Sequence record: PX104378.1
Length of the DNA stretch: 64,000 bases
Source of the DNA: a phage
Reading direction: 5' to 3' (one strand)
The notes under the pieces were generated by a model. That model saw only the letters and a program-made list of their open reading frames with translations. It made no database searches and was not told the origin of the DNA. A program made the position numbers and the translations under genes. Of this stretch, positions 1,859 to 15,117 are shown piece by piece (positions within the stretch are counted from its first letter, which is position 1; every line of letters begins with the position of its first letter).

Positions 1859-3853
1859 ATGACTCTATTATCACCGGGTTTCGAAACGAAAGAAACTACT
1901 CTCTCCACTACCATTGTGCAATCTGCGACTGGTCGCGCGGCGCTGGTAGGTAAATTCCAATGGGGTCCAGCTTTCCAGATTATTCAAGTAACTAATGAAG
2001 TTGAGTTAGTTAATAAATTTGGTCAGCCGGATAATAACACCGCAGACTATTTCATGAGCGGGGCTAACTTCCTCCAGTACGGTAATGATCTGCGTGTTGT
2101 TCGTGTATTGAATAAAGAAAAAGCAAAAAACGCAACTACCCTAGCTGGCAACGTAGAGTTTGAAATCACAAACGAAGGTTCAAACTATAAGGTTGGCGAT
2201 ACAATTAAAGTAAAATACAAAAATTCTGAAATTGAAACTGGCGGAAAGATTACAAAAATTTCGTCGGAAGGTAAGATCAAAGGTATTTTTATTCCAACTG
2301 GTAAACTGATTGCACATGCAAAAACAATCGGGGCATATCCAAAACTGGAAGGATACACCGTAGAAATCATTTCTGATAGCGGTAACTCAGGTGCATCGAT
2401 CACTGTATCTGGAATTGTAGTCGACTCCGGTCTTCTGTTAACTGACATGGAAACTTCCCGCGCCAATATAACGAATCAAACTTTCTTGACTAAACTCAAG
2501 AAGTATGATATGCCAGCTGTAAGCGCGATCTATGCTGGTGAGATTGGCAACTCGCTGGAAGTTGAAATTCTGTCGCGTAGTGCGTTTAAGAACACAGCAC
2601 CGGATCTGACCATGTATCCTTATGGTGGCGAGCGCACCGCAGCACGCAACCTGATTCCATATGCACCGCAGAATGATAATCAATATGCGTTCATTGTTCG
2701 TCGCGATGGTGTTGTGGTAGAATCCTATGTATTGTCCACTCTGAAAGGAGATAAAGACGTCTACGGCAATTCTATCTATATGGACGACTTCTTTTCTCGT
2801 GGTGCTAGCCAGTACATCTATGCAACCGCTCAGGGGTGGGTAGATGGCTTCAGTGGCATTATTTCTCTTGCTGGCGGTGTTTCTGCCAACGAAGCAACCG
2901 CTGGTGTTGGTGCTGACCCGTTTGTTAGTGCGATGATGCAAGGCTGGGATCTGTTTGCTGAACGTGAATCTATTCATGTAAACCTTCTGATTGCTGGTGC
3001 ATGTGCTGGTGAAGGTGATGCATTCTCTACCGTACAGAAACATGCTGTTTCTATCGGTGATGAGCGTCAGGATTGCTTAGTAATGGTTTCTCCGCCGCGT
3101 AGCACTGTTGTTAATATTCCGGTGACTACTGCAATTGATAACCTGATTGCATGGCGCGAAGGTTCGGGAAACTATAATGAAAACAACATGAACATTAATA
3201 CCACTTACGCGGTTATTGATGGTAACTACAAGTATCAGTATGACAAATATAACGATGTAAACCGTTGGGTTCCGTTGGCTGCTGATATTGCTGGCTTGTG
3301 TGCTCGTACTGATGCTGTATCCCAGCCGTGGATGAGTCCGGCAGGTTATAACCGTGGTCAGATCATGAACGTGGTTAAACTGGCTATCGAGCCTCGCAAG
3401 GCACACCGTGATCGTCTGTATCAGGCCGCAATTAACCCGGTAATCGGTGCTGGTGGTGAAGGGTTTATCCTGATGGGTGATAAAACCGCTACGACTGTTC
3501 CTAGCCCGTTTGACCGCATTAACGTTCGTCGTCTGTTTAACATGCTGAAAAAGAATATCGGCGATTCAAGCAAATACAAACTGTTTGAAAACAATGATAA
3601 CTTTACTCGCGCTTCCTTCCGTATGGAGGTTTCGCAATATCTCAGCACGATTCGCTCTCTGGGTGGCATTTATGACTTCCGAGTACAATGCGACACCACG
3701 AACAACACGCCGGATGTAATTGATCGTAACGAATTTGTTGCTAGTATGTTCATCAAACCAGCAAAATCGATCAACTATATCATGCTCAATTTCACTGCTG
3801 TTGCAACTGGTGCTGATTTTGACGAAATTATCGGTCCAGCTAACCAGGCATAA
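1859..3853 (+). CDS. 18: Contractile tail sheath protein (gp18-like)
   Basis: 664 aa vs T4 gp18 659 aa; follows terminase as in T4; ATG with SD; TATAAATA upstream. Confidence 0.92.
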   Translation: MTLLSPGFETKETTLSTTIVQSATGRAALVGKFQWGPAFQIIQVTNEVELVNKFGQPDNNTADYFMSGANFLQYGNDLRVVRVLNKEKAKNATTLAGNVEFEITNEGSNYKVGDTIKVKYKNSEIETGGKITKISSEGKIKGIFIPTGKLIAHAKTIGAYPKLEGYTVEIISDSGNSGASITVSGIVVDSGLLLTDMETSRANITNQTFLTKLKKYDMPAVSAIYAGEIGNSLEVEILSRSAFKNTAPDLTMYPYGGERTAARNLIPYAPQNDNQYAFIVRRDGVVVESYVLSTLKGDKDVYGNSIYMDDFFSRGASQYIYATAQGWVDGFSGIISLAGGVSANEATAGVGADPFVSAMMQGWDLFAERESIHVNLLIAGACAGEGDAFSTVQKHAVSIGDERQDCLVMVSPPRSTVVNIPVTTAIDNLIAWREGSGNYNENNMNINTTYAVIDGNYKYQYDKYNDVNRWVPLAADIAGLCARTDAVSQPWMSPAGYNRGQIMNVVKLAIEPRKAHRDRLYQAAINPVIGAGGEGFILMGDKTATTVPSPFDRINVRRLFNMLKKNIGDSSKYKLFENNDNFTRASFRMEVSQYLSTIRSLGGIYDFRVQCDTTNNTPDVIDRNEFVASMFIKPAKSINYIMLNFTAVATGADFDEIIGPANQA

Positions 3854-3926
3854 TCAGTAAATTAGCATAGATTAAAAGTTAAATCAAGCGGGGAGAAAAT
3901 CCCCGCTCTATTAAGGAATATCAATT

Positions 3927-4421
3927 ATGGCACTCGATTTGAATGATATTACACGCGGTTTCGAGTCTGGCGATTTTGCTCGTCCTAACCTGTTTGAAGT
4001 TGAGATCCCATATCTGGGGCAAAACTTTAAGCTGATGTGTAAAGCGGCAACTGTCCCTGCTGCTACCGTAGAAAAAATCGCTGTAGGTTATCAAAACCGT
4101 AAAATTAACATCGCTGGCGACCGTGTATACGACGACTGGACCATCACTGTATTCAACGATGACGCACACAAGATCCGTGATGCTATCGTTGCATGGAGCG
4201 ATCAGACACATGGCACTGGTTCGGCGATCACGGGTGCAACTCCTGCACAATATAAGAAACAAGCTATTGTTCGTCAACTTAACCGTAACACCGAATCAAC
4301 TAGCGAAAAAACATTGTACGGTATTTTCCCGACCAACGTTGGTGAAGTAACCCTCGATTGGGAACAAAACAACGAAGTTGAAACGTTTGAAGTTACTTTT
4401 GCTATCGATTGGGTAGAATAA
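3927..4421 (+). CDS. 19: Tail tube protein (gp19-like)
   Basis: 164 aa, same size and position as T4 gp19. Confidence 0.9.
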   Translation: MALDLNDITRGFESGDFARPNLFEVEIPYLGQNFKLMCKAATVPAATVEKIAVGYQNRKINIAGDRVYDDWTITVFNDDAHKIRDAIVAWSDQTHGTGSAITGATPAQYKKQAIVRQLNRNTESTSEKTLYGIFPTNVGEVTLDWEQNNEVETFEVTFAIDWVE

Positions 4422-4479
4422 ATATATTATCATGCGGGGAGAAGTTCCCCGCTTAATTTCTCCCAATTCGAGGTGAATA

Positions 4480-6045
4480 ATGTTTAGTAGATTAAAAATG
4501 CTTGCGCGTTGGGCTGATTTTGACAACGACAAATACGAAGAACAAATTAAAGATAAAGCAGAGTCTATCGCCGCACCTAAAAACAATGATGGTGCTACGG
4601 AAGTAGAAATTAATGATAACTCTCCGGCTAGCGCGTGGAACTCTCTTACCCAGCAATTTTACAGCACCGACCAGAAAATCAGTACAACTAAGCAATTGGT
4701 TAACACATATCGCGGTTTGATGAATAACCATGAAGTCGAAAACGCTGTACAAAATATCGTTAACGATGCGATTGTATTTGAAGAAGGTCATGACGTTGTT
4801 TCATTAAATCTTGAGGCGACTGGCTTTAGTGAATCTGTAAAAGAGCGCATTCATGAAGAATTTAAAGATCTTTTAAACACTATCCAGTTTGATAAGCGTG
4901 GTCAGGATATGTTCCGTCGCTGGTATGTCGATTCGCGTATTTTCTTCCATAAGATCATCGGTAAAAATCCAAAAGATGGTATCGTAGAATTACGCCAGCT
5001 TGATCCACGAAATCTTGAATATGTTCGCGAGATCATTACAGAAGACACACCGGAAGGTAAAATTTATAAAGCAACGAAAGAATATTTCATTTACACTGTA
5101 GGTAATAGCTCTTATTGCGCAGGTGGTCAAGTATTCTCTCCCAATAGTCGCGTTAAAATCCCGCGTAGTGCTATTACATACGCTCACAGCGGCTTGATGG
5201 ATTGTGATGATAAATATATCATTGGTTATTTGCATCGGGCGGTTAAGCCAGCAAACCAGCTTAAATTGTTGGAAGACGCAATGGTCGTTTATCGTATCAC
5301 GCGTGCACCGGAACGCCGAGTGTTCTTTATTGATACCGGAAACATGAACAACCGCAAGGCTGCACAGCACATGAACTCAGTGGCACAGTCTTTTAAAAAT
5401 CGCGTTGTTTATGATGCATCTACTGGTAAACTTAAAAACCAGCAAGCAAACCTATCAATGACAGAGGACTACTGGTTACAACGTCGAGATGGTAAAGCAA
5501 TCACCGACGTTACTACTTTACCGGGTGCATCCGGTATGAGTGATATCGATGATATTCGCTACTTTAACCGTAAATTATATGAAGCGTTGCGTGTACCATT
5601 GTCACGTAGCAATCTCTCCGATGCTAATATGGTGATCGGTGGTGACGGTTCAGAAATTACTCGCGATGAGTTGGAATTTTCGAAATTCATTAGAACTCTG
5701 CAATCACAGTTTTCGGAAGTATTGCGCGATCCGCTTAAATATAATCTGATTCTCAAAAATGTAATTACGGAAGACGATTGGGATCGTGAAATAAATAATA
5801 TCAAGGTGGTTTTCCATCGGGACTCTTATTATACAGAAGTTAAAGACGCGGAAATTTTAGAACGTCGAATCGGTCTAATCGAACGTATCGCCCCTTACAT
5901 TGGTAAGTATTTCTCTAACCAGACAGTGATGCGTGACATTCTGAAATATACCGATGACCAGATGGACACCGAGAAGAAACAGATCGAAGAAGAAGCGAAC
6001 GATCCGCGCTTTAAACAAACTCCCGATGAAATAGAGGATTTTTAA
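4480..6045 (+). CDS. 20: Portal vertex protein (gp20-like)
   Basis: 521 aa vs T4 gp20 524 aa; SD GAGGTG before ATG. Confidence 0.92.
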   Translation: MFSRLKMLARWADFDNDKYEEQIKDKAESIAAPKNNDGATEVEINDNSPASAWNSLTQQFYSTDQKISTTKQLVNTYRGLMNNHEVENAVQNIVNDAIVFEEGHDVVSLNLEATGFSESVKERIHEEFKDLLNTIQFDKRGQDMFRRWYVDSRIFFHKIIGKNPKDGIVELRQLDPRNLEYVREIITEDTPEGKIYKATKEYFIYTVGNSSYCAGGQVFSPNSRVKIPRSAITYAHSGLMDCDDKYIIGYLHRAVKPANQLKLLEDAMVVYRITRAPERRVFFIDTGNMNNRKAAQHMNSVAQSFKNRVVYDASTGKLKNQQANLSMTEDYWLQRRDGKAITDVTTLPGASGMSDIDDIRYFNRKLYEALRVPLSRSNLSDANMVIGGDGSEITRDELEFSKFIRTLQSQFSEVLRDPLKYNLILKNVITEDDWDREINNIKVVFHRDSYYTEVKDAEILERRIGLIERIAPYIGKYFSNQTVMRDILKYTDDQMDTEKKQIEEEANDPRFKQTPDEIEDF

Positions 6046-6701: not shown

Positions 6702-7397
6702 ATGGAAAAGAACGAATTACTGATCGAACAATGGGGCGTTCCTTGTGCTCGCGGTAGTTCGTCATTGCTTGAATCATTTGATGATAAGGCTACAGGAAAT
6801 CTCTATATTCAAGGGATTTTCCTGCAAGCCGAAACAGTAAACCGTAATAAACGCTGGTATCCTCGCAGCGTTCTAGAAAATGCGGTTACTAAATACATAC
6901 ATGAACAAGTTGAGACACATCAAGCTCTAGGCGAACTTAATCACCCAGCAAGAGCAATGCCAGATCCATCTAATGCTTGCATCATAATTGAAAAATTGTG
7001 GTGGGAAGGTAATAACGTGATGGGTAAAGCCCGTGTTATTGAAGGGGATAAAGGCGCAGGGGATAAACTTGCTGCACTGATTCGCGCTGGCTGGATTCCT
7101 GGCGTTTCCTCCCGTGGGTTGGGTCGGTTGAAAGACTCTGGTCGCGGATACAATATTGTACAGGAAGGTTTTGTGTTGACGGTTGGTGTTGATGTTGTAT
7201 GGGGTCCGAGCGCACCAGATGCGTGGGTAACTCCGGTGGTTGAGTCAACGGATAGCGATTCTAGCGCGTCAGACGCACCAGAAAGCGATAAAACCGAAAA
7301 AGTGACTAACCCTACAGCCTCACAACAAAACATCGTAGAATCGAATAATAGCGCGTTTATGGCGCTCGCAGAAGCGTTATCTAAACGCTATAAATAA
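6702..7397 (+). CDS. 21: Prohead core scaffold/protease (gp21-like)
   Basis: 231 aa; position and size comparable to T4 gp21. Confidence 0.85.
   Translation: MEKNELLIEQWGVPCARGSSSLLESFDDKATGNLYIQGIFLQAETVNRNKRWYPRSVLENAVTKYIHEQVETHQALGELNHPARAMPDPSNACIIIEKLWWEGNNVMGKARVIEGDKGAGDKLAALIRAGWIPGVSSRGLGRLKDSGRGYNIVQEGFVLTVGVDVVWGPSAPDAWVTPVVESTDSDSSASDAPESDKTEKVTNPTASQQNIVESNNSAFMALAEALSKRYK
7389..7396 (+). promoter_or_regulatory. Late promoter (TATAAATA) for gp22
   Basis: Exact TATAAATA upstream of gp22. Confidence 0.6.
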
Positions 7398-7428
7398 TAA
7401 CGTCGTTATCAACAAGAAGGTTATAACC

Positions 7429-8223
7429 ATGCTTAAAGAAATGCTGCTCGAAGAAGCAAAACAGATCACCGTAGACGTTGCTCTCGATGACCTGTTTGAA
7501 TCCGTCGAACTGTCGCCGGAAGTAAAAGAAAATTTTGGTACTATCTACGCTCAAGCGGTAAAAGCTAATGCTGTTGCACTGGCAGAAAGCCACATTGAAA
7601 AAATCGCCGCTAAAGCCGATGAACTGGTAGAATCAAAGGTCGAAGAAGCACGCACCGAGATTGAAACCAAACTGTACGAAGATGCAGATAAATTCCTGAA
7701 TCACTTAGGCGCTAAATGGCTGGCAGAAAATAAAGAAGCCGTTACCCGTAATATTAAAGCGGATCTGTGCGAATCCCTGATTGGTTCTCTGAAAGATGTT
7801 TTCGTTACTCACAATGTTGTAGTACCGGAAGAATCTGTAGATGTTGTTGCTGAACTTGACGAAGCACTGAAAGAAGAAAAAGAGAAAACCGCTGAACTCT
7901 TTGACTCTAAACTGCAACTTGAAAGCGAAATTCGTGGCATGAAGCGCGAACAAGCGATCAATGAAAGCACTCGTGATCTTTCCGATACTCAGAAAGAAAA
8001 AGTAACCGCGCTGATTGAAGGTCTGGAATATAGCGAAACTTTCGATAAGAAATTAACTGCAATTGTCGAAATGGTTGCTAAGAAAGAAGACAAACCAGCG
8101 AAGATTGAAGAATCACTAAATACTGATGCCGACAAGCTGAATGTTATTGCAGAAGCTGTCGAAGAATCAGAGAAAAAGGCAACTGTAGATTCCGGCGTAT
8201 CCCGCTACCTGAATTTCATCTAA
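7429..8223 (+). CDS. 22: Prohead scaffolding protein (gp22-like), acidic coiled-coil
   Basis: 264 aa, E/K-rich helical; TATAAATA upstream; position as in T4. Confidence 0.85.
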   Translation: MLKEMLLEEAKQITVDVALDDLFESVELSPEVKENFGTIYAQAVKANAVALAESHIEKIAAKADELVESKVEEARTEIETKLYEDADKFLNHLGAKWLAENKEAVTRNIKADLCESLIGSLKDVFVTHNVVVPEESVDVVAELDEALKEEKEKTAELFDSKLQLESEIRGMKREQAINESTRDLSDTQKEKVTALIEGLEYSETFDKKLTAIVEMVAKKEDKPAKIEESLNTDADKLNVIAEAVEESEKKATVDSGVSRYLNFI

Positions 8224-8241
8224 TGTAATTCAAATCTACTT

Positions 8242-8249
8242 TATAAATA
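8242..8249 (+). promoter_or_regulatory. Late promoter (TATAAATA) for gp23
   Basis: Exact TATAAATA about 35 bp upstream of gp23 ATG. Confidence 0.65.
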
Positions 8250-8282
8250 CTTTAGGTTAACAACAAACAAGGTTTAAAGAAC

Positions 8283-9881
8283 ATGAAAACTACCAAAGAA
8301 CTGATGGAAAAATGGTCCCCGCTGCTGGAGAACGAAAAACTGCCGGAAATCGCAACTGCGTCTAAGCAGAAACTGGTTGCTAAAATTCTGGAATCTCAGG
8401 AAGCGGATTTTGCTGTAGACCCGATCTATAAAGATGAAAAAGTTGTTGAAGCATTTGGTGGCTTTATCACCGAAGCAGAAGTTGCTGGCGACCACGGTTA
8501 TGATGCATCCAAAATCGCCGCAGGTCAGACTACTGGTGCAATCACCAACGTAGGTCCGGCTGTTATCGGTATGGTTCGCCGTGCTATTCCTAACCTGATC
8601 GCATTTGATATTTGTGGCGTTCAGCCGATGAGCACCCCGACTAGCCAGATCTTTGCAATCCGTTCTGTATACGGTCCAGACCCGCTTGCAGGTGGCAATG
8701 CTCAGAATGTTCGTGAAGCATTCCATCCGATGTATTCTCCGAATGTGTTCCATAGCTCTCTGGCTGCTAAAGATGCAACCACTGGTTCCCCGACTGGTAC
8801 TGCATTCCAGCAACTCCAAATGTCACAAGCAATTCAGCCGGGAGATATTGTACACCATACTTTTGCAGAAACCGGAATTGCATATCTGCAAAACGTACAC
8901 AGTAGCGCAGTAACTCCGTCTAAAGCTGGTTCAGAATCCGAAGATGAAGTGGTCATGAAGCTGATGGAAGAAGGTAAGCTGGCTGAAATCGCTTTCGGTA
9001 TGGCTACTTCCATTGCCGAAATTCAGGAAGGTTTTAACGGTTCCAGCAATAACCCGTGGGCTGAAATGTCAATGCGTATTGACAAACAGGTTGTTGAAGC
9101 GAAATCTCGCCAACTGAAAGCCCGTTATTCTATCGAAGTTGCGCAGGATCTGCGTGCTGTACACGGTATGGATGCTGACGCTGAACTGAATGCTATCCTG
9201 GCTAACGAAGTTCTGCTGGAAATCAACCGTGAAATCGTTGACGTAATCAACTTTACCGCACAGGTTGGTAAAACTGGTATGACTCAGACCGTTGGTTCTA
9301 AAGCTGGTGTATTTGACCTGCAAGACCCGATCGATACTCGCGGTGCTCGTTGGGCTGGTGAATCCTTCAAATCTCTGATCTACCAGATCGACAAAGAAGC
9401 TGCTGAAATCGCTCGTCAGACTGGTCGCGGTGCTGGTAACTTTGTTATCGCTTCCCGTAACGTTGTAAACATTCTGGCTTCTGCTGATCAGGGTATCAGT
9501 GTTGCTATGCAGGGTGCTGCAAAAGGTCTGAATACCGACACAACTAAAGCTGTTTTCGCTGGTGTTCTGGCTGGTAAGTACAAAGTATTCATCGACCAGT
9601 ATGCTCGTCAGGACTACTTCACCGTAGGTTACAAAGGCGACAACGAAATGGATGCTGGTATCTACTATGCTCCGTATGTTGCTCTGACTCCGCTGCGTGC
9701 AACCGATCCGCAGTCTTTCCACCCGGTTCTGGGCTTCAAGACTCGCTACGGCATCGGTATTAACCCGTTTGCAGACAGCAAAACCCAGGCACCGTCCGCT
9801 CGCATCACCTCCGGTATGTTGAGCAAAGACAGCGTAGGTAAAAACGCATACTTCCGCCGTGTATGGGTTAAAGGTTGCTAA
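8283..9881 (+). CDS. 23: Major capsid protein (gp23-like)
   Basis: 532 aa; long identical stretches to T4 gp23 as recalled (MVRRAIPNLIAFDICGVQPM, GIYYAPYVALTPLR, KTRYGIGINPF). Confidence 0.97.
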   Translation: MKTTKELMEKWSPLLENEKLPEIATASKQKLVAKILESQEADFAVDPIYKDEKVVEAFGGFITEAEVAGDHGYDASKIAAGQTTGAITNVGPAVIGMVRRAIPNLIAFDICGVQPMSTPTSQIFAIRSVYGPDPLAGGNAQNVREAFHPMYSPNVFHSSLAAKDATTGSPTGTAFQQLQMSQAIQPGDIVHHTFAETGIAYLQNVHSSAVTPSKAGSESEDEVVMKLMEEGKLAEIAFGMATSIAEIQEGFNGSSNNPWAEMSMRIDKQVVEAKSRQLKARYSIEVAQDLRAVHGMDADAELNAILANEVLLEINREIVDVINFTAQVGKTGMTQTVGSKAGVFDLQDPIDTRGARWAGESFKSLIYQIDKEAAEIARQTGRGAGNFVIASRNVVNILASADQGISVAMQGAAKGLNTDTTKAVFAGVLAGKYKVFIDQYARQDYFTVGYKGDNEMDAGIYYAPYVALTPLRATDPQSFHPVLGFKTRYGIGINPFADSKTQAPSARITSGMLSKDSVGKNAYFRRVWVKGC

Positions 9882-9951
9882 TTAAACTCCGGTCGGGTGC
9901 AATGCCCGACTTATCATAAACCTTATGACAGTGTAAAGTGTTAATTCCAAA

Positions 9952-9982
9952 GGGAAGACTCGAATGGGGTCTTCCCTTTTTG
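9952..9982 (+). terminator. Intrinsic terminator after gp23
   Basis: GGGAAGAC-loop-GTCTTCCC stem followed by TTTTTG. Confidence 0.7.
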
Positions 9983-9997
9983 CGTATTATATCCCGT

Positions 9998-10005
9998 TAT
10001 AAATA
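9998..10005 (+). promoter_or_regulatory. Late promoter (TATAAATA) for the gp23-gp24 insertion genes
   Basis: Exact TATAAATA about 40 bp upstream of ORF 10044..10352, after the gp23 terminator. Confidence 0.6.
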
Positions 10006-10043
10006 AGGTTGCAAGCCTATATTCTAAGGGGAGCGAAAATTAG

Positions 10044-10352
10044 ATGCACACACTTATAAAGACCAAAACTCCAGCCGTTTCCGCGTCGGTAAACTGCGTT
10101 CATAGTACGCATATGACAGTACAGATGACCGTAGAAGGTGCGCGGGAAGGGCAAAAAGTCATTGCGGAAGCCTTGTTAGAAGGTTCCTTAGATGGCAAAG
10201 GTTGGTTCACTATTTCAGAATTGAAAGCTGATGGTAATGAATATGCAACTGATGGTGGAGCGTTTGAAACATTATGGTCATTTATTAGGGCAAAAGTAAA
10301 ATCTGTTTCCAATGATTCTACTGTAACCGTGTATCTTGCTAAACGGGGGTAA
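10044..10352 (+). CDS. Hypothetical late protein
   Basis: 102 aa ORF with ATG start directly downstream of a TATAAATA late promoter. Confidence 0.6.
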   Translation: MHTLIKTKTPAVSASVNCVHSTHMTVQMTVEGAREGQKVIAEALLEGSLDGKGWFTISELKADGNEYATDGGAFETLWSFIRAKVKSVSNDSTVTVYLAKRG

Positions 10353-10359
10353 TTATTAT

Positions 10360-12090
10360 ATGAAGCTAAATCCACAAGCTATCATTAATGCTGGTTCCGT
10401 TAGTGGTGGTTGTTCTGGTGGCGGTATTCAGATCGGAACTAACGTACCTTGCGGAATTAAAAATACTCACCGTTTCGAAAATGAAGAAGCTAGGGATGAA
10501 TATTTTACCGAACATTTTCCAGAATTGGAGAGACTAAAAACAATTATTGTTTGTGGCGAAAAACTCCAATTATGGACGGGTAAAACAGCACAATCTCCCT
10601 ACGATAAATCAAAATGGGTCGATATGACCTGGGTTATTCAGGGTGAACAGGGTATTCCTGGTGAGAAGGGCGAAAATGGACGTGGTATTGCTAGGATCGA
10701 AGCGAGATTGTCCGAGGACGACCGCAACTGGACTCTAGAAGTCACGTACTCAGACGGAACACAGGAGTCTCTTGTATTTCCAGTACCAGAAGTATTAGCT
10801 AACGTTGCGCAGCGTCTATCTGCAATTGAAGTAAAATGGACTACGACGAATCCGATTAATAATCTGGATGTAACCACATCACCCGGACGCTATCCGGTAG
10901 GTGATGCAACCTATGGCAAACCTCCAATGATGGCGAATAAGGGGTCCGCAGATGTATATGTCGTTGATGGTAGCATTCTTCAAGTGGTCCGTTCTATTGA
11001 TGGTGGTGTTTACTCTCGTATCCGACACAATGGTGCATGGCGTGAGTGGAACTCTCAAAGCGGGGAAGGAAGTGGTGGCGGTGGTTTAAATGGTGATCAG
11101 GAGGCGATGTTAACCAGTTTGGGTAAACGTCTACCTGAAATTTCACCCGAAACACTGGACCTAAACACCTTGACTAAACAAGGCCGTTTCTGTTACTTTG
11201 AGGGGTCGGCAAACCGCCCAAATGGAACACAAACACATGGTTCTGTAGATGTTCATGCATGTAAAGATCATGTATTGCAGATCGCAACAAGCATTGATGG
11301 CGTAATGTATCACCGTTCCTATACAAAGAGAACTGATCGATGGACCGAATGGTTACAGATCAGCGATCACACTGGCGGTGCTACCATTTATGCATTCCCT
11401 CGTGTATCAAGCGTGTTTACTACGGCACAAAACCTGATAGAAGTAACTAACCCAGGAACAGGGAACGGTTCATTTTATATTCCGTGGAAATATGTTATTC
11501 ATGATAACTATGGATGCACACCACAAATAAAAGAGCCACAAAGACAGGAAGACGCTGATCATTGGTGGGTCGCGCCTAAATCCGGTAGCTATGATATGGA
11601 ATTGCTTTTTGATATTGGATTTATTAAAACACAACAAACAATTCCACCAATTTTCGTAGTGACCGCATGGCACAGGACCAATGAAGGAAATGAGCGTTTA
11701 GCCGCTCGTTATAATATCGGTTTTGACGTATCAACAAAAAACCAAAAAACCAAATCTCTAAAATTGAGATTGAATCAAATACCATCCGGTGAGATGTTTC
11801 GCTGGCAAGTGACGTTTAGCGGTGGTAGTTGGTCATCAAACGATAACCCAGATGTTTCACTTGTACCATTCCGCACATTGCTGATGGTCGACGAAGTAGA
11901 ACACGACACAGCAAAACGAGTTGGTGCATTGGCGTATAACACATGGGCTAACTTCCAAGCTAAAAAAGGTCTTGCTGCAACCGTAGGTGAGGATGAACTA
12001 CAAAAAGCTCGTCTTAACGCGGTTAAATGGGGTGCTATCATCGAAAGCGTTGAAGCAACTCCGCAAGAAGGCCAGCAACCAGTGCAATAA
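10360..12090 (+). CDS. Fiber-like protein with short collagen-like G-X-Y segment and repeated knob-like modules
   Basis: Start trimmed to ATG after GGGGG SD (table start is TTG); GEQGIPGEKGENGRG segment; two related modules (ILQVVRSIDGGVYSRIRHNGAWREW and HVLQIATSIDGVMYHRSYTKRTDRWTEW); G-rich linkers. Confidence 0.7.
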   Translation: MKLNPQAIINAGSVSGGCSGGGIQIGTNVPCGIKNTHRFENEEARDEYFTEHFPELERLKTIIVCGEKLQLWTGKTAQSPYDKSKWVDMTWVIQGEQGIPGEKGENGRGIARIEARLSEDDRNWTLEVTYSDGTQESLVFPVPEVLANVAQRLSAIEVKWTTTNPINNLDVTTSPGRYPVGDATYGKPPMMANKGSADVYVVDGSILQVVRSIDGGVYSRIRHNGAWREWNSQSGEGSGGGGLNGDQEAMLTSLGKRLPEISPETLDLNTLTKQGRFCYFEGSANRPNGTQTHGSVDVHACKDHVLQIATSIDGVMYHRSYTKRTDRWTEWLQISDHTGGATIYAFPRVSSVFTTAQNLIEVTNPGTGNGSFYIPWKYVIHDNYGCTPQIKEPQRQEDADHWWVAPKSGSYDMELLFDIGFIKTQQTIPPIFVVTAWHRTNEGNERLAARYNIGFDVSTKNQKTKSLKLRLNQIPSGEMFRWQVTFSGGSWSSNDNPDVSLVPFRTLLMVDEVEHDTAKRVGALAYNTWANFQAKKGLAATVGEDELQKARLNAVKWGAIIESVEATPQEGQQPVQ

Positions 12091-12107
12091 TTAGTGAGGG
12101 GTGATCG

Positions 12108-13040
12108 ATGACCGATATTAAAGCAAAGATCAGTAAGTTGCAAAATGAGTTTGTTCAAGGTGAAATTACACATTTCACTGGTAATGAGTCTAATGCTCTA
12201 ATGGAAAGTGATGTTGAAAGAATTTCAAATTCAATAAACACTCAGTTAATTGATCCTGTAATTGATTTTGTTATTGCGTGTGATGACGTAATATCAGAAA
12301 CAGCAAGTTCGGCACACCGAACGGCAGAAGTCGCAAAAAATACGGCTGATGTTGCGGATCGAACGGCAGGGCAATCCATGAGCAAAGCAACTGATGCACT
12401 GACTAAAGCGACTACCGCAGAATCGGAAGCAGCACGAGCACACAGCCGATTGGATGGTTTGAATATTCCACAATTACCAAACCTAGACAATCAAACATGG
12501 AATTGGCTATCACGTTCATTTGATAGTGTCAGTATTAAGCCAGCCGTAGGTGTGACTCTTGTCGATCCGGTAAGCGGAAAACCACACATCACATGGACAC
12601 CAATTAGACAAAACTTTGAAACTGGTCGATATTACGTGGAAGGGCGTTTTGAGGCTAGATTTAAGGTTATGCTTATGGACTGGACACAATCTTCACAAGG
12701 TGGTCATATTCATTATCTAGGCGGTGGTCAAAGTCTGGCGTCATTTAATGGACGAGTAGAACTATCTGGTTTGTCTAACGATGTAATGAAACCAACCAAC
12801 ATACAGGTCAATGCATATACGGCAAAAGATACTCAAGTAATTTTTGGTGCATGTGCTGACGCTGCGATCTCAAATTCTAATGAGATTAAATTAGCGTTCA
12901 TGGTTGATATTGGGTCGGATCGATTTGATAGATTTACAGATCCGGTTTATGTCGACCTTGTTATGACATTCCAGCGTGACGCTAGCGGTAATTTTGGTTT
13001 TGGTACGCTGTTCCCTGAATTAACCCCAAATTCTCCATAA
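12108..13040 (+). CDS. Hypothetical structural protein, N-terminal coiled coil plus C-terminal beta-rich domain
   Basis: 310 aa ORF, ATG with SD; alanine/threonine-rich helical segment. Confidence 0.65.
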   Translation: MTDIKAKISKLQNEFVQGEITHFTGNESNALMESDVERISNSINTQLIDPVIDFVIACDDVISETASSAHRTAEVAKNTADVADRTAGQSMSKATDALTKATTAESEAARAHSRLDGLNIPQLPNLDNQTWNWLSRSFDSVSIKPAVGVTLVDPVSGKPHITWTPIRQNFETGRYYVEGRFEARFKVMLMDWTQSSQGGHIHYLGGGQSLASFNGRVELSGLSNDVMKPTNIQVNAYTAKDTQVIFGACADAAISNSNEIKLAFMVDIGSDRFDRFTDPVYVDLVMTFQRDASGNFGFGTLFPELTPNSP

Positions 13041-13050
13041 GGAGGAATGC

Positions 13051-13203
13051 ATGAGTAAGAAAGAAAACAGCTATGTTATGACTCGTAAGGAATACGACGA
13101 ATTGATGTTAGCATTAGCTTATGCAATTATTCGTTCTGATCATGCAATTAATCTGGTAAACAAAGTTAACCGTAGCGTTGATAATGTTTCTAGGAAGAAG
13201 TAA
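13051..13203 (+). CDS. Small hypothetical protein (50 aa), not in ORF table
   Basis: ATG preceded by strong SD AAGGAGG; translation MSKKENSYVMTRKEYDELMLALAYAIIRSDHAINLVNKVNRSVDNVSRKK; followed by intrinsic terminator. Confidence 0.55.
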   Translation: MSKKENSYVMTRKEYDELMLALAYAIIRSDHAINLVNKVNRSVDNVSRKK

Positions 13204-13211
13204 TTTTATTT

Positions 13212-13240
13212 GGGAATCCTTCGGGATTCCCTTTTCTTTT
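13212..13240 (+). terminator. Intrinsic terminator before gp24 late promoter
   Basis: GGGAATCC-TTCG-GGATTCCC hairpin followed by T-run. Confidence 0.7.
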
Positions 13241-13242
13241 TG

Positions 13243-13250
13243 TATAAATA
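13243..13250 (+). promoter_or_regulatory. Late promoter (TATAAATA) for gp24
   Basis: Exact TATAAATA between terminator and gp24 ATG. Confidence 0.65.
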
Positions 13251-13287
13251 TGATATATCCATTAAGGCAAATACAGGATTCATAAAC

Positions 13288-14529
13288 ATGACTCATATTT
13301 TTACTGAACTGTTGCGGGAATCTACTTCCTCAGTAGCTAACCAGACAGCGCGACCGCAACTATTATCATTAACTCGCGCGGTAAACAACCTGATTTTCTC
13401 TGATCTGGTAGCAATCCAGCCAACGGATCAACCAGTATCTGCATTGTACGGCCTACGTTATCTTAATCATGATGGTCAGATGACTTTCCGAACTGCTGCA
13501 ACCTACGGTGGCGCGGTTGGTGATCGCACAGAGATCGAAGAGTTTTCAAAAGAAAAATCTTATGAAGAAGGCGCACTGTTCAAATCAGGCGATGTTGTAT
13601 ACGAAGTTGTGACCGCTGGTACAGTCGGTGAAGATGCCGCAACTCCAGAAGCTGCGATCTTTAAAGGCGTAATGACAAACAAAATTCGTTTCTATAGCGA
13701 TTGTGCATCGGTAGAATACTTTGAAGATAAAAACACCGAAATTGCGTCTACCTCTATGCAGTTTGACAAGTGGCAAGTTAATGTAGGTTCTCGTAAACTG
13801 AAAACCTCTTTCACCACTGAATTAATGCAGGATCTTGAAGCAAGCCAAATCAACTCTGAAAACTCTGTAATTGATCTTCTGGCTACTGTCGCTTCCGAAG
13901 AGATCAACAAAGATATTATACAGAAGTTGATCACTGTATCATCTCGCTATAAAATTAAAGGGATCACCCCTGATGGCGTACTTTCTCTCGTTAGCGTTCA
14001 GGATGCACCAAAACAAGCTCGCGAACTTTACCGCTATGCTTGCGAAATGAGCAATCAAATGTTGCGGACTTCCTCCTTTGCTGGCACATACGTTTTGGCG
14101 TCTTCTCGCGTGGTTGGCCTCCTGCAATCCACCGGATGGATGGAAGAAACCGACAACGCTCTAAGCGAAGGTCGTCTACGTTGCGGTCTGGAAGTGTATG
14201 CAGACACTGTAACACCTTTCGATTATATGCTCGTTGGTTGTAAGCACATGATCGGTGATATGGAGAGTGTAGGTTCTCTGTTCTACTCCCCATACACAGA
14301 AGCCGATGGTGCTGGCGCGTATAAGAGCGTAATTGACCCTAATAGTTTCCAACATCATGTGGCTATTATGAATCGTTATTCACTCTCTGTCAACCCATAC
14401 ACATCAAAAGTTGATCAGGAAGCACACCAGATCATCAAGGGTGACGATTGGGGTAAAATGGCTGGACGTTCAGAAATGTCCTACATTTTAGGAATCGAAC
14501 TGCCACCGCTTGAGATTGACAACGCTTAA
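13288..14529 (+). CDS. 24: Capsid vertex protein (gp24-like)
   Basis: Start trimmed to ATG (MTHIF) downstream of terminator and TATAAATA; N-terminus colinear with T4 gp24 as recalled (ELLRESTxx ... IQPT.QPV). Confidence 0.92.
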   Translation: MTHIFTELLRESTSSVANQTARPQLLSLTRAVNNLIFSDLVAIQPTDQPVSALYGLRYLNHDGQMTFRTAATYGGAVGDRTEIEEFSKEKSYEEGALFKSGDVVYEVVTAGTVGEDAATPEAAIFKGVMTNKIRFYSDCASVEYFEDKNTEIASTSMQFDKWQVNVGSRKLKTSFTTELMQDLEASQINSENSVIDLLATVASEEINKDIIQKLITVSSRYKIKGITPDGVLSLVSVQDAPKQARELYRYACEMSNQMLRTSSFAGTYVLASSRVVGLLQSTGWMEETDNALSEGRLRCGLEVYADTVTPFDYMLVGCKHMIGDMESVGSLFYSPYTEADGAGAYKSVIDPNSFQHHVAIMNRYSLSVNPYTSKVDQEAHQIIKGDDWGKMAGRSEMSYILGIELPPLEIDNA

Positions 14530-15117
14530 CTAAATATCTAACCAAGACAAGTCAGATCCGCCCAAGATTTTTTCGACGGCGGATCTATTTTCTTGATGAT
14601 ATAAGTTAAAACATGGTATCCCATGTCTACGGGCAACATAAACAGCAATTCGAGTTCCTCCAGAAACAATCCCATTAACTTCTTTCGCCCAAAATAACAC
14701 ACAATCTACAGGATCATCAAGTGTCTCACCTAAGACTTGAGCAACATTTCTAGAAAACAGATTTTGCATGTATAACGGTATAGAACGAGGATTATCATAA
14801 ACGTGTTCTAATTCATCCATCGCCAGATCTTTTTGTTCTAAGGTTTGCCATGCGATCACATCATGACCGTTATGCTTGTGGTCATAAAACTTCCAATTTG
14901 GAATGAAGATTTTTCTATAATCTGGATCGTAATACTTCATGAAAGCATTGTCCATACCGTAAGCCCCTCCAGAATGCGCTACAACGCGATTTTCTGACAA
15001 TACCCTCCCAATGGTACTAGCCATTATCAAAATGTCGCTAGGCGCTTTTCTAGAGCCTATTAAAGCACATCTACGAAGTGGTTTTACTCCAAATAGATCT
15101 TGTAACTGGTCAAACAT
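14530..15117 (-). CDS. Rossmann-fold DprA/Smf/LOG-like (SLOG superfamily-like) protein
   Basis: 195 aa; GSRKAPS ... VVAHSGGAYGMDNAF resembles the DprA/SLOG nucleotide-binding motif; family assignment from motif only. Confidence 0.55.
   Translation of the reverse strand: MFDQLQDLFGVKPLRRCALIGSRKAPSDILIMASTIGRVLSENRVVAHSGGAYGMDNAFMKYYDPDYRKIFIPNWKFYDHKHNGHDVIAWQTLEQKDLAMDELEHVYDNPRSIPLYMQNLFSRNVAQVLGETLDDPVDCVLFWAKEVNGIVSGGTRIAVYVARRHGIPCFNLYHQENRSAVEKILGGSDLSWLDI

What the first reader, a model, noticed from the sequence alone, without database searches (positions are those of the whole stretch)
10044..13203. Late-promoter-driven insertion between gp23 and gp24 encoding a collagen-like, knob-repeat fiber protein
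T4 carries only segD between genes 23 and 24. Here a TATAAATA late promoter follows the gp23 terminator and drives four ORFs, including a 576-aa protein with a G-X-Y collagen-like segment, glycine-rich linkers and two related knob-like modules ending in ..R.W.EW. A strong terminator precedes the gp24 promoter. Placement in the head module and late expression suggest a virion-associated head fiber or accessory adhesin, possibly host-range related.
Basis: partly seen in the sequence, partly recalled or inferred. Interest (0 to 1): 0.6.

Follow-up and report, generated by a model that had tools for sequence, protein, structure and literature searches.

The report
Accessory fibre genes between gp23 and gp24
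A T4-like (Krischvirus) phage carries, inside its head-gene cluster, a late operon for two knob-tipped fibre proteins and a small partner protein; this is an old, selected accessory adhesin module that most sequenced relatives have deleted, and where it sits on the virion is still unknown.

Summary
Between the gp23 terminator and the gp24 promoter lie a TATAAATA late promoter, four ORFs with ribosome-binding sites (102, 576, 310 and 50 aa) and a terminator.

- **ORF3 (310 aa)** is a second fibre: an alanine-zipper coiled coil plus a β-sandwich that resembles pyocin and phage receptor-binding "foot" domains.
- **ORF1 (102 aa)** belongs to a family that directly precedes a fibre gene after gp23 in Aeromonas and Stenotrophomonas T4-like phages. 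In a Pseudomonas phage it is fused to the N-terminus of an SGNH esterase.

The segment is not an insertion:
- The four-gene order persists in homologues down to 46% identity.
- dN/dS is about 0.1.
- The common "short" Krischvirus locus (e.g. GEC-3S) is this cassette with two microhomology-flanked deletions, which left ORF2 and ORF3 fragments behind.

My best reading is a set of virion-displayed accessory adhesin fibres that the phage can lose without harm on laboratory hosts. Head attachment is plausible but untested, and tail or neck attachment is about equally likely. This is a new member of a known kind, of moderate interest.

The parts
8283..9881 (+). gp23 major capsid protein (left flank; not part of the module)
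   Evidence: ORF list. Annotated as major capsid protein in Brandy and GEC-3S.
9949..9981 (+). Intrinsic terminator after gp23
   Evidence: 13-bp hairpin plus U-run, -20.9 kcal/mol, z = -4.8. Annotated as a terminator in GEC-3S and G2248.
9998..10005 (+). T4-type late promoter TATAAATA for the cassette
   Evidence: Exact match. Its 46-nt spacing to the ORF1 start is close to the 40-45 nt spacing of the motifs before gp22, gp23 and gp24. It is conserved in GEC-3S.
10044..10352 (+). ORF1, 102 aa, phrog_16217 family: small β-rich partner of fibre genes (putative adaptor or carbohydrate-binding subunit)
   Evidence: phrog_16217 E = 2.5e-21. Homologues lie directly after gp23 in Aeromonas phages 44RR2.8t and 31 and in IME13, each followed by a fibre gene. 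The domain is fused to the N-terminus of an SGNH esterase in Pseudomonas phage Orisa03. dN/dS is 0.07-0.12.
10360..12090 (+). ORF2, 576 aa, modular fibre protein
10360..10641 (+). ORF2 N-terminal region, aa 1-94: the most conserved part and the putative docking and trimer-initiation region
   Evidence: Mean pairwise identity is 74%, the highest of all ORF2 domains. Profile positions 30-108 match the N-termini of many collagen-like fibre proteins. The first 10 residues, MKLNPQAIIN, resemble MILNPKAVLN of the 44RR2.8t fibre that also follows an ORF1 homologue.
10642..10686 (+). Five G-X-Y triplets (aa 95-109)
   Evidence: Regex run. Four of the five triplet glycines are invariant and the fifth (G104) is kept in at least 90% of sequences. 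No Pfam Collagen hit.
10840..11058 (+). Knob domain 1 (aa 161-233), pyocin-knob type
11146..11367 (+). Knob domain 2 (aa 263-336), paralogue of knob 1
   Evidence: BLASTP of knob 1 against knob 2 gives E = 1e-11 at 31% identity. pLDDT is 72-81.
11392..11949 (+). ORF2 C-terminal TNF/C1q-like jelly-roll head (aa 345-530)
12108..13040 (+). ORF3, 310 aa, second fibre: N-terminal domain, alanine-zipper coiled coil (aa 34-117) and β-sandwich head (aa 135-295)
13051..13203 (+). ORF4, 50 aa, phrog_16600, function unknown: co-transcribed, but kept almost unchanged in phages that lost the fibres
   Evidence: phrog_16600 E = 8e-38. Nearly identical DNA in GEC-3S.
13212..13231 (+). Intrinsic terminator ending the cassette
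   Evidence: 8-bp GC-rich stem with a UUCG loop and a U-run. -14.2 kcal/mol, z = -3.6.
13243..13250 (+). Late promoter of gp24 (right flank)
   Evidence: gp24 starts at 13288.

Best explanation
The 3.2-kb segment is a self-contained late operon (promoter at 9998, terminator at 13212) that encodes an accessory fibre set displayed on the virion.

**Components**
- ORF2 probably forms a trimeric fibre. A conserved N-terminus docks it. A short G-X-Y stretch and a β-domain start the shaft. Two pyocin-type knobs extend it. A TNF/C1q-like jelly-roll head at the tip binds a ligand.
- ORF3 forms a second, shorter coiled-coil fibre with its own N-terminal docking domain and a lectin-like β-sandwich tip.
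- ORF1 is the small partner that accompanies such fibres. It is probably the adaptor that fixes ORF2 to the particle, or else a sugar-binding subunit.
- ORF4 is co-transcribed but appears to act independently of the fibres.

**Proposed function**
The fibres give extra, reversible binding to surface glycans on hosts or in their surroundings. That helps in nature but is not needed on laboratory strains, so the module is repeatedly lost.

**What is shown and what is inferred**
- Shown: the operon anatomy, the domain folds, purifying selection, ancestral status and the deletions.
- Inferred: trimer formation, display on the virion, the adhesin function and the role of ORF1.

**Attachment site**
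This is unresolved. I put the capsid (hexamer, or the gp24 vertex as in PRD1 and adenovirus) at about 0.35-0.4 and the tail, neck or baseplate at about 0.35.
For: - **Operon anatomy.** Late promoter, four ORFs with Shine-Dalgarno sequences, and terminators on both sides.
- **ORF2 against viral structures.** The named matches are mostly tail fibre, receptor-binding, C1q-domain and collagen-repeat proteins, with 278 hits at E <= 0.001.
- **ORF2 is modular.** The profile search finds 295 proteins that share the N-terminal, knob or head modules separately.
- **ORF3.** It has a long helix plus a β-sandwich whose best matches are pyocin and phage receptor-binding foot or head domains. Its N-terminal domain is shared with a paralogous 614-aa coiled-coil protein in JK32 that has a different tip, which is typical of interchangeable fibres using one docking site.
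- **ORF1 accompanies fibres.** An ORF1 homologue followed by a fibre with an Sf6-type knob (PF16532, E = 4e-27) lies between gp23 and gp24 in Aeromonas phage 44RR2.8t. A decayed copy of the same pair is in IME13. The ORF1 domain is fused N-terminally to an SGNH esterase next to a collagen-like fibre gene in Orisa03.
- **Selection.** dN/dS is 0.07-0.15, similar to gp23. Synteny is kept at 46% identity. The N-terminus is the most conserved part and the distal parts are more variable.
- **Dispensability.** GEC-3S-type phages carry two deletions, of window 10053-11537 and 11699-12878, with microhomology at the junctions and with remnant ORFs. Brandy has a 1-nt frameshift. The IME13 fibre gene is fragmented.
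Against: - No experimental or proteomic evidence places any of these proteins in virions. The literature searches found none.
- The ORF2 model is only moderately confident (mean pLDDT 60.6), and the N-terminal 115 residues are unresolved.
- The folds of ORF1 and ORF4 were not predicted.
- Gene position is weak evidence for the attachment site. Sf6-knob fibre genes lie in early-gene regions in fHe-Yen9-01 and RB43. Homologues of the ORF2 N-terminal module lie in tail-fibre loci of a crAss-like phage and a Vibrio phage.
- The ORF1 family gives weak discoidin (F5/8 type C) hits (best E = 0.002). ORF1 could therefore be a sugar-binding module rather than an anchor.
Confidence: 0.65

Rival explanations
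1. The proteins are the same, but they are auxiliary tail, baseplate or neck fibres: extra receptor-binding proteins or whisker-like fibres. They are not capsid decorations. The position between gp23 and gp24 is only a permissive gap bounded by a terminator and a promoter, and it was inherited by descent.
For: - Every recognisable module comes from tail appendages: pyocin fibre knobs and foot, phage receptor-binding heads, and the Sf6 needle knob in the Aeromonas counterpart.
- Homologues of the ORF2 N-terminal module sit after baseplate J and Mu gp48 in Vibrio phage 1.017.O, and in the tail-fibre region of a crAss-like contig.
- T4 uses the same gap for an unrelated selfish gene, segD.
- Sf6-knob fibre genes of other T4-like phages lie far from the head genes.
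Against: - The ORF1-plus-fibre pair is kept directly after gp23 in three Straboviridae genera: Krischvirus, Biquartavirus and Tulanevirus.
- T4-type accessory structural genes tend to lie next to their partners, for example hoc near gene 24 and wac near genes 13 and 14 (established T4 map).
- No docking partner on the tail has been identified.
- The Vibrio fibre cassette also occurs between the head-tail adaptor and tail-completion genes in phage 489E54-1.
Confidence: 0.35
2. The proteins are not part of the virion. They are late-made soluble or cell-bound lectin-like proteins, for example decoys released at lysis that mask receptors or debris, or factors that act on the cell envelope.
For: - There is no virion evidence at all.
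- The ORF1 family gives weak carbohydrate-binding (discoidin) hits and is fused to an esterase in Orisa03.
- C1q/TNF-like and lectin-like heads also occur in soluble proteins.
Against: - The architecture, with a conserved N-terminus, shaft elements and variable distal heads, is that of virion fibres.
- No signal peptide or membrane segment is evident in the sequences.
- The operon is placed and timed together with the structural genes.
Confidence: 0.08
3. The segment is a recently acquired mobile insertion (a moron), with no stable role for the phage.
For: - Only 6 of 59 matching phage records carry the cassette.
- The modules are shared with distant phages.
Against: - The short form retains internal fragments of ORF2 (aa 417-443) and ORF3 (aa 265-296), with microhomology at the junctions. 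It is therefore a deletion derivative.
- The same four-gene order is present at 46-59% protein identity.
- dN/dS is about 0.1.
- There is no mobility gene, and G+C is unremarkable: 42.4% in the cassette, 40.7% in the window, 44.6-48.3% in the neighbouring genes.
Confidence: 0.03

Closest known systems
R-type and F-type pyocin / phage tail fibre knob and foot domains (PDB 6CL5, 6CL6, 6CT8/6CU2, 6CXB)
   Same: - ORF2 carries two tandem knob domains. Their profile retrieves pyocin fibres as its four best PDB hits, and their predicted fold matches the R2 pyocin fibre.
- The ORF3 head most resembles the R1 pyocin foot.
- The overall plan, knobs followed by a distal binding domain, is the same.
   Different: - Sequence similarity is marginal (E = 0.006-0.05).
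- The distal domain of ORF2 is a TNF/C1q jelly roll, not the pyocin foot.
- The N-terminal part is unrelated.
- The genes lie in the head cluster of a T4-type phage, not beside baseplate genes.
Collagen-stalked trimers with a C1q/TNF-like head: PRD1 vertex protein P5, BclA, C1q, collagen VIII NC1
   Same: - A Gly-X-Y stretch lies upstream, and the N-terminus is conserved.
- PRD1 P5 is a trimeric vertex fibre on a penton, which is the model for a fibre attached to gp24.
   Different: - There are only five G-X-Y triplets and no Pfam Collagen or C1q sequence match.
- Two knob domains are interposed between the stalk and the head.
- Attachment to a vertex is not shown.
Aeromonas phage 44RR2.8t ORF162w/ORF163w, with the decayed copy in Stenotrophomonas phage IME13
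   Same: - An ORF1 homologue (36% identity, phrog_16217) lies directly after gp23 and is followed by a fibre gene before gp24.
- The fibre N-terminus MILNPKAVLN resembles MKLNPQAIIN of ORF2, and the distal knob is also a jelly roll.
   Different: - There is one short fibre (288 aa) built from tail-fibre repeats and an Sf6-type knob.
- There is no ORF3 or ORF4 equivalent.
- Apart from the first ~10 residues, the fibre is not detectably homologous to ORF2.
- These genes are likewise uncharacterised.
Known head fibres and spikes: phi29 gp8.5, RcGTA head spikes, T4 Hoc
   Same: Non-essential, late-made surface appendages that increase adsorption and are readily lost. This comparison rests on published knowledge of those systems, not on tests here. 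The T4 hoc gene lies close to gene 24.
   Different: - No sequence or fold match to these proteins appeared in any search.
- A capsid location for ORF2 and ORF3 has not been shown.

Membership tests
Pyocin-knob domain (tail fibre knob of R/F pyocins and phages) | Sequence similarity to the knob profile, with the motif ..G....P...G.l.V......Q.......Y.R.....W..W | tested here: met
   A profile of the 24 knob segments finds 6CL5 (E = 0.0056), 6CT8 (0.014), 6CL6 (0.019) and the F2-pyocin fibre 25VE (0.055) as its four best PDB hits. The E-values are marginal but the ranking is specific. The local Pfam and NCBIfam copies give no hit. PF27308 is precomputed on three homologues, but its name is not available here.
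Pyocin-knob domain (tail fibre knob of R/F pyocins and phages) | Knob fold | tested here: met
   [not shown]
Pyocin-knob domain (tail fibre knob of R/F pyocins and phages) | Homotrimeric assembly within a fibre | not testable with these tools
   Only monomer prediction is available.
C1q/TNF-like jelly-roll head domain | Ten-strand jelly-roll fold | tested here: met
   [not shown]
C1q/TNF-like jelly-roll head domain | Sequence membership of Pfam C1q or TNF | tested here: not met
   No Pfam hit at E <= 1. Identity to the structural matches is 6-14%. This is fold-level resemblance only.
Collagen triple-helix repeat (PF01391) | A long uninterrupted G-X-Y run that matches the Pfam model | tested here: not met
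   Only five triplets, at aa 95-109, and no Pfam Collagen hit. Proteins that share the N-terminal module do have true collagen repeats, for example P0066 at E = 2e-17.
Phage fibre / receptor-binding protein (functional class) | Conserved N-terminal docking part, a shaft, and exchangeable distal binding domains | tested here: met
   Identity by domain is 74% in the N-terminus and 49-61% distally. The modules occur separately in other fibre proteins. ORF3 and JK32 gp162 share the N-terminal domain but differ in shaft and tip.
Phage fibre / receptor-binding protein (functional class) | Physical presence on the virion and binding to a host receptor | not testable with these tools
   No proteomic or structural study of a cassette-bearing phage was found.
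Capsid decoration proteins of T4-type phages (Hoc, Soc) | Sequence or domain similarity: Ig-like domains with a capsid-binding domain (Hoc), or the Soc fold | tested here: not met
   None of the four ORFs gives a Pfam, PHROG or NCBIfam match to Hoc or Soc. Ig-domain Hoc-like genes lie elsewhere, downstream of gp24 on the opposite strand, in a related contig.
Mobile insertion / moron | Sporadic presence with intact empty sites, a mobility gene or compositional anomaly, and no conserved synteny | tested here: not met
   The 'empty' sites contain ORF2 and ORF3 fragments. Synteny is kept at 46% identity. There is no mobility gene, G+C is 42.4% against 40.7% for the window, and dN/dS is about 0.1.

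The most novel reading that the evidence does not exclude
The module builds true head fibres on a T4-type capsid. ORF1 would act as an adaptor on gp23 hexamers or on the gp24 vertex pentamer. It would hold trimeric ORF2 fibres, in the way PRD1 P5 and adenovirus fibres sit on pentons with a symmetry mismatch, and possibly ORF3 fibres as well. This would be a second capsid-display system, independent of Hoc, that is ancestral to several Straboviridae genera (Krischvirus, Biquartavirus, Tulanevirus) and was lost in the laboratory-favoured RB49 clade.
Probability: 0.33. Interest if true: 0.7.

Novelty: new member of a known kind. Interest (0 to 1): 0.45.

Why it matters
T4-type phages are the best-studied virions, yet this conserved late structural module has no annotation beyond "hypothetical protein" in any record I found.

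- **Adsorption.** If the fibres are on the particle, they add one or two glycan-binding specificities. That would affect adsorption, host range or retention on surfaces for Krischviruses now used in phage therapy and biocontrol (UPWr_E1, SSG23).
- **Differences between close relatives.** It would also explain how near-identical phages that carry or lack the cassette can differ.
- **Loss in isolates.** The repeated decay (a double deletion, a frameshift, a fragmented gene) shows how isolation on laboratory hosts can strip accessory adhesins.
- **Engineering.** If the fibres sit on the capsid, the module would offer a new display scaffold and a new case of symmetry-mismatched vertex fibres.

Tried and rejected
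- **Direct sequence annotation of ORF2.** Pfam, NCBIfam and PDB phmmer gave nothing. The whole-protein profile against PDB gave only sub-threshold pyocin hits (E about 0.7-0.9). A knob-only profile was needed to get further.
- **ORF3 against PDB sequences.** Only noise.
- **ORF1 profile against PDB.** Noise. ORF1 Pfam hits to the FlgD Tudor domain and P2 GpU are insignificant. The discoidin hint (best E = 0.002, for the Orisa03 domain alone) is recorded but not relied on.
- **ORF1 against the small ORFs before the Vibrio phage fibre.** No similarity.
- **44RR2.8t ORF163w against the ORF2 and ORF3 profiles by hhalign.** Low probability (2-10%). Only the extreme N-terminus and an SFNGR motif align, so homology beyond the N-terminal peptide is not claimed.
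- **Orisa03 esterase against the ORF2 profile.** Nothing.
- **Names for remote module homologues.** None are recorded in the source databases.
- **Word-indexed homologue search for ORF1.** It found only five close relatives. The wider family came from tblastn and PHROGs.
- **Literature.** There is no description of these genes, no virion proteome for a cassette-bearing phage, and no report of head fibres in Krischvirus or Biquartavirus.
- **Inferring head attachment from gene position.** This was weakened by finding Sf6-knob fibre genes in early-gene regions of fHe-Yen9-01 and RB43.
- **The "recent insertion" reading.** Rejected.


Full report
**What the window is**

The window comes from a Krischvirus, an RB49-like member of the Straboviridae. 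The segment 9880-13300 is 97% identical to phage Brandy and 93-96% identical to SSG23, SFHK24 and UPWr_E1. The surrounding genes are the T4-type head cluster:
- gp21 at 6702-7397
- gp22 at 7429-8223
- gp23 at 8283-9881
- gp24 at 13288-14529

**The observation**

- A strong hairpin with a U-run follows gp23 (about 9949-9981, -20.9 kcal/mol, z = -4.8).
- TATAAATA is at 9998-10005. It lies 46 nt before the ORF1 ATG. The motifs before gp22, gp23 and gp24 lie 40-45 nt before their starts, which argues that the site is a working late promoter. By count alone the motif is not enriched in the window (9 found, 5.7 expected).
- Four ORFs with Shine-Dalgarno sequences follow: ORF1 at 10044-10352 (102 aa), ORF2 at 10360-12090 (576 aa), ORF3 at 12108-13040 (310 aa) and ORF4 at 13051-13203 (50 aa).
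- A GC-rich hairpin with a UUCG loop and a U-run (13212-13231) ends the unit just before the gp24 late promoter at 13243.
- ORF2 has five G-X-Y triplets (aa 95-109), two glycine-rich linkers, and two paralogous ~75-aa modules that end in R..W.EW (31% identity, E = 1e-11).
- T4 has segD in the equivalent gap.

**ORF2 is a modular fibre**

Direct sequence searches of ORF2 gave nothing. The large protein collection holds 21 clusters of full-length homologues of 555-576 aa at 46-99% identity.

An AlphaFold2 model built on their alignment is confident for aa 163-233, 263-335 and 345-530. It is not confident for the first 115 residues.

A profile built only from the 24 knob segments retrieves R1, R2 and F2 pyocin fibres as its four best PDB sequence hits (E = 0.0056-0.055). 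The two repeats are therefore pyocin-type knob domains.

Foldseek against viral predicted structures mostly returns, among the named targets, tail fibre, receptor-binding, C1q-domain and collagen-repeat proteins.

An exhaustive profile search shows that the protein is a mosaic:
- The N-terminal module (profile positions 30-108) starts many collagen-like fibre proteins. Examples are a 1025-aa protein of Vibrio phages and a protein in a crAss-like contig.
- The knobs occur in hundreds of proteins.
- The head domain forms the C-terminus of ~300-aa proteins in T7-like contigs.

Within the family the N-terminus is the most conserved part (74% mean pairwise identity). The distal parts are at 49-61%. 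This is the usual pattern for fibres, where the virion-proximal end is constrained.

**ORF3 is a second fibre**

- The ORF3 model (mean pLDDT 75.9) has one long helix, aa 34-117, which gives a sub-threshold match to the alanine-zipper model. A β-sandwich follows at pLDDT about 90.
- Phage JK32 has an extra gene in the cassette. It encodes a 614-aa coiled-coil protein whose first ~60 residues match the ORF3 N-terminus, within a 116-aa alignment at E = 3e-15. Its shaft and tip differ. Two fibres that share a docking domain is the hallmark of interchangeable virion appendages.

**ORF1 accompanies fibres**

- ORF1 belongs to phrog_16217.
- Homologues lie directly after gp23 in Aeromonas phages 44RR2.8t and 31 (Biquartavirus). 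There they are followed, before gp24, by a 288-aa protein with tail-fibre repeats and an Sf6-type needle knob (PF16532, E = 4e-27).
- That fibre begins MILNPKAVLN and ORF2 begins MKLNPQAIIN. Nothing else in the two proteins aligns. I take the shared N-terminal peptide as a possible docking signal. This is an inference.
- Stenotrophomonas phage IME13 (Tulanevirus) has an unannotated ORF1 homologue and a fragmented copy of that fibre.
- In Pseudomonas phage Orisa03 the ORF1-like domain is the N-terminus of a 594-aa SGNH/GDSL esterase, next to a collagen-like fibre gene.

The family is thus tied to surface appendages in three contexts. It may be an anchor. Given weak discoidin hits (best E = 0.002), it may instead be a sugar-binding module. 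That question stays open.

**Not an insertion**

- The homologue with 46% identity lies in the same order: gp23, then genes of 100, 561, 303 and 43 aa, then gp24.
- dN/dS against G2248 and JK32 is 0.07-0.15 for ORF1-3, comparable with gp23.
- The common short locus is a deletion derivative. GEC-3S aligns to window 9884-10052, 11538-11698 and 12879-13300 in one contiguous stretch. It therefore lacks 10053-11537 and 11699-12878.
- Short direct repeats lie at both junctions. The ORF1 start codon is mutated to ATA. The small annotated ORFs of GEC-3S are fragments of ORF2 (aa 417-443) and ORF3 (aa 265-296).
- Nearly all cassette-less records share the same ORF3 remnant, aa ~261-310. This points to one ancestral loss in the RB49, phi1, JSE and GEC-3S clade.
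- Brandy has a 1-nt deletion that splits ORF2.
- ORF4 and both promoters survive unchanged in the short form, so ORF4 probably has a role of its own.

**Mechanism**

My best-supported reading is a late-expressed set of virion-displayed accessory fibres with lectin-like tips. They would add reversible binding to surface glycans and are not needed on laboratory hosts.

The anatomy, folds, selection and evolutionary history are shown. Trimer formation, virion display, ligand binding and the role of ORF1 are inferred.

The attachment site is open.
- For the capsid: the ORF1-plus-fibre pair is kept next to gp23 and gp24 in three genera, and the ORF2 plan resembles PRD1 P5.
- For the tail or neck: all homologous modules come from tail appendages. 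Relatives of the ORF2 N-terminal module lie in tail-fibre loci. Sf6-knob fibre genes of fHe-Yen9-01 and RB43 lie in early-gene regions, so gene position is a weak guide.

I put the capsid at about 0.35-0.4, the tail or neck at about 0.35, and a non-virion role at about 0.1.

**Comparison with known systems and novelty**

The domains are new members of known fold families: the pyocin knob, the C1q/TNF-like head, and the coiled-coil fibre with a receptor-binding foot. Membership of Pfam Collagen, C1q, Hoc or Soc is not met at the sequence level.

No paper in the library describes these genes or a virion proteome for a cassette-bearing phage. All database records call them hypothetical.

I rate this a new member of a known kind, of moderate interest. 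It would rise to a notable new variant if the fibres prove to sit on the T4-type capsid.

Noticed in passing
L001 (Brandy MZ504876), equivalent to window 11088: A single-nucleotide deletion in an A-run (TTTAAATGG to TTTAATGG) at ORF2 codon 243 splits the fibre gene into two annotated CDS. It is either a sequencing error or early pseudogenisation.
   Followed up: partly
L002 (GEC-3S) 3168-3450; window 11538-11698 and 12879-13040: The 32-aa and 45-aa 'hypothetical proteins' annotated in GEC-3S-type Krischviruses (the 45-aa one is phrog_20809) are leftover fragments of ORF2 and ORF3. They are unlikely to be real genes.
   Followed up: yes
window 13051-13203 (ORF4): The 50-aa ORF4 (phrog_16600) is kept almost unchanged, with its strong ribosome-binding site and the late promoter, in phages that deleted the fibre genes. 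It probably has a separate, unknown late function.
   Followed up: partly
L004 (JK32 MK962753) 7189-9033: JK32 carries an extra 614-aa coiled-coil ('tropomyosin-like') gene between ORF3 and ORF4. It shares the ORF3 N-terminal domain and is a third fibre variant in the same cassette.
   Followed up: partly
L011 (IME13 NC_029000) 3447-4654: There is an unannotated ORF1 homologue after gp23. The downstream Sf6-knob fibre gene is broken into a 72-aa N-terminal ORF and a 139-aa knob ORF.
   Followed up: partly
L005 (Vibrio phage 1.017.O) 6625-12977 and L006 (Vibrio phage 489E54-1) 6668-12953: A seven-gene block with the same gene sizes and order, headed by a ~1015-1025-aa fibre with an ORF2-like N-terminus, appears in two places. 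In one phage it lies after baseplate J and Mu gp48. In the other it lies between the head-tail adaptor and tail-completion genes. This looks like a mobile fibre cassette; only the fibre of 1.017.O was compared with ORF2.
   Followed up: no
L010 (Pseudomonas phage Orisa03) 6974-12019: After the lysis genes lies a cluster of appendage-like genes: an ORF1-like domain fused to an SGNH esterase, a small gene annotated surE, a collagen-like fibre protein and a 627-aa unknown.
   Followed up: partly
L016 (fHe-Yen9-01) 3623-4441; L017 (RB43) 3743-4444: Solitary genes for Sf6-type knob proteins lie on the opposite strand, embedded among oppositely oriented genes (early-type functions such as rI, tk and regB in fHe-Yen9-01; unannotated genes in RB43). 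These may be further unrecognised accessory fibres.
   Followed up: no
window 14530-15117 (minus strand): Directly after gp24, where T4 has rnlB, this phage has a 195-aa gene that GEC-3S annotates as a DprA-like recombination mediator.
   Followed up: no
L007 12677-15686 (minus strand): In the divergent Krischvirus-like contig, two Ig-domain proteins (411 aa and at least 841 aa) lie downstream of gp24. They are probably Hoc plus a much larger Hoc-like protein.
   Followed up: no
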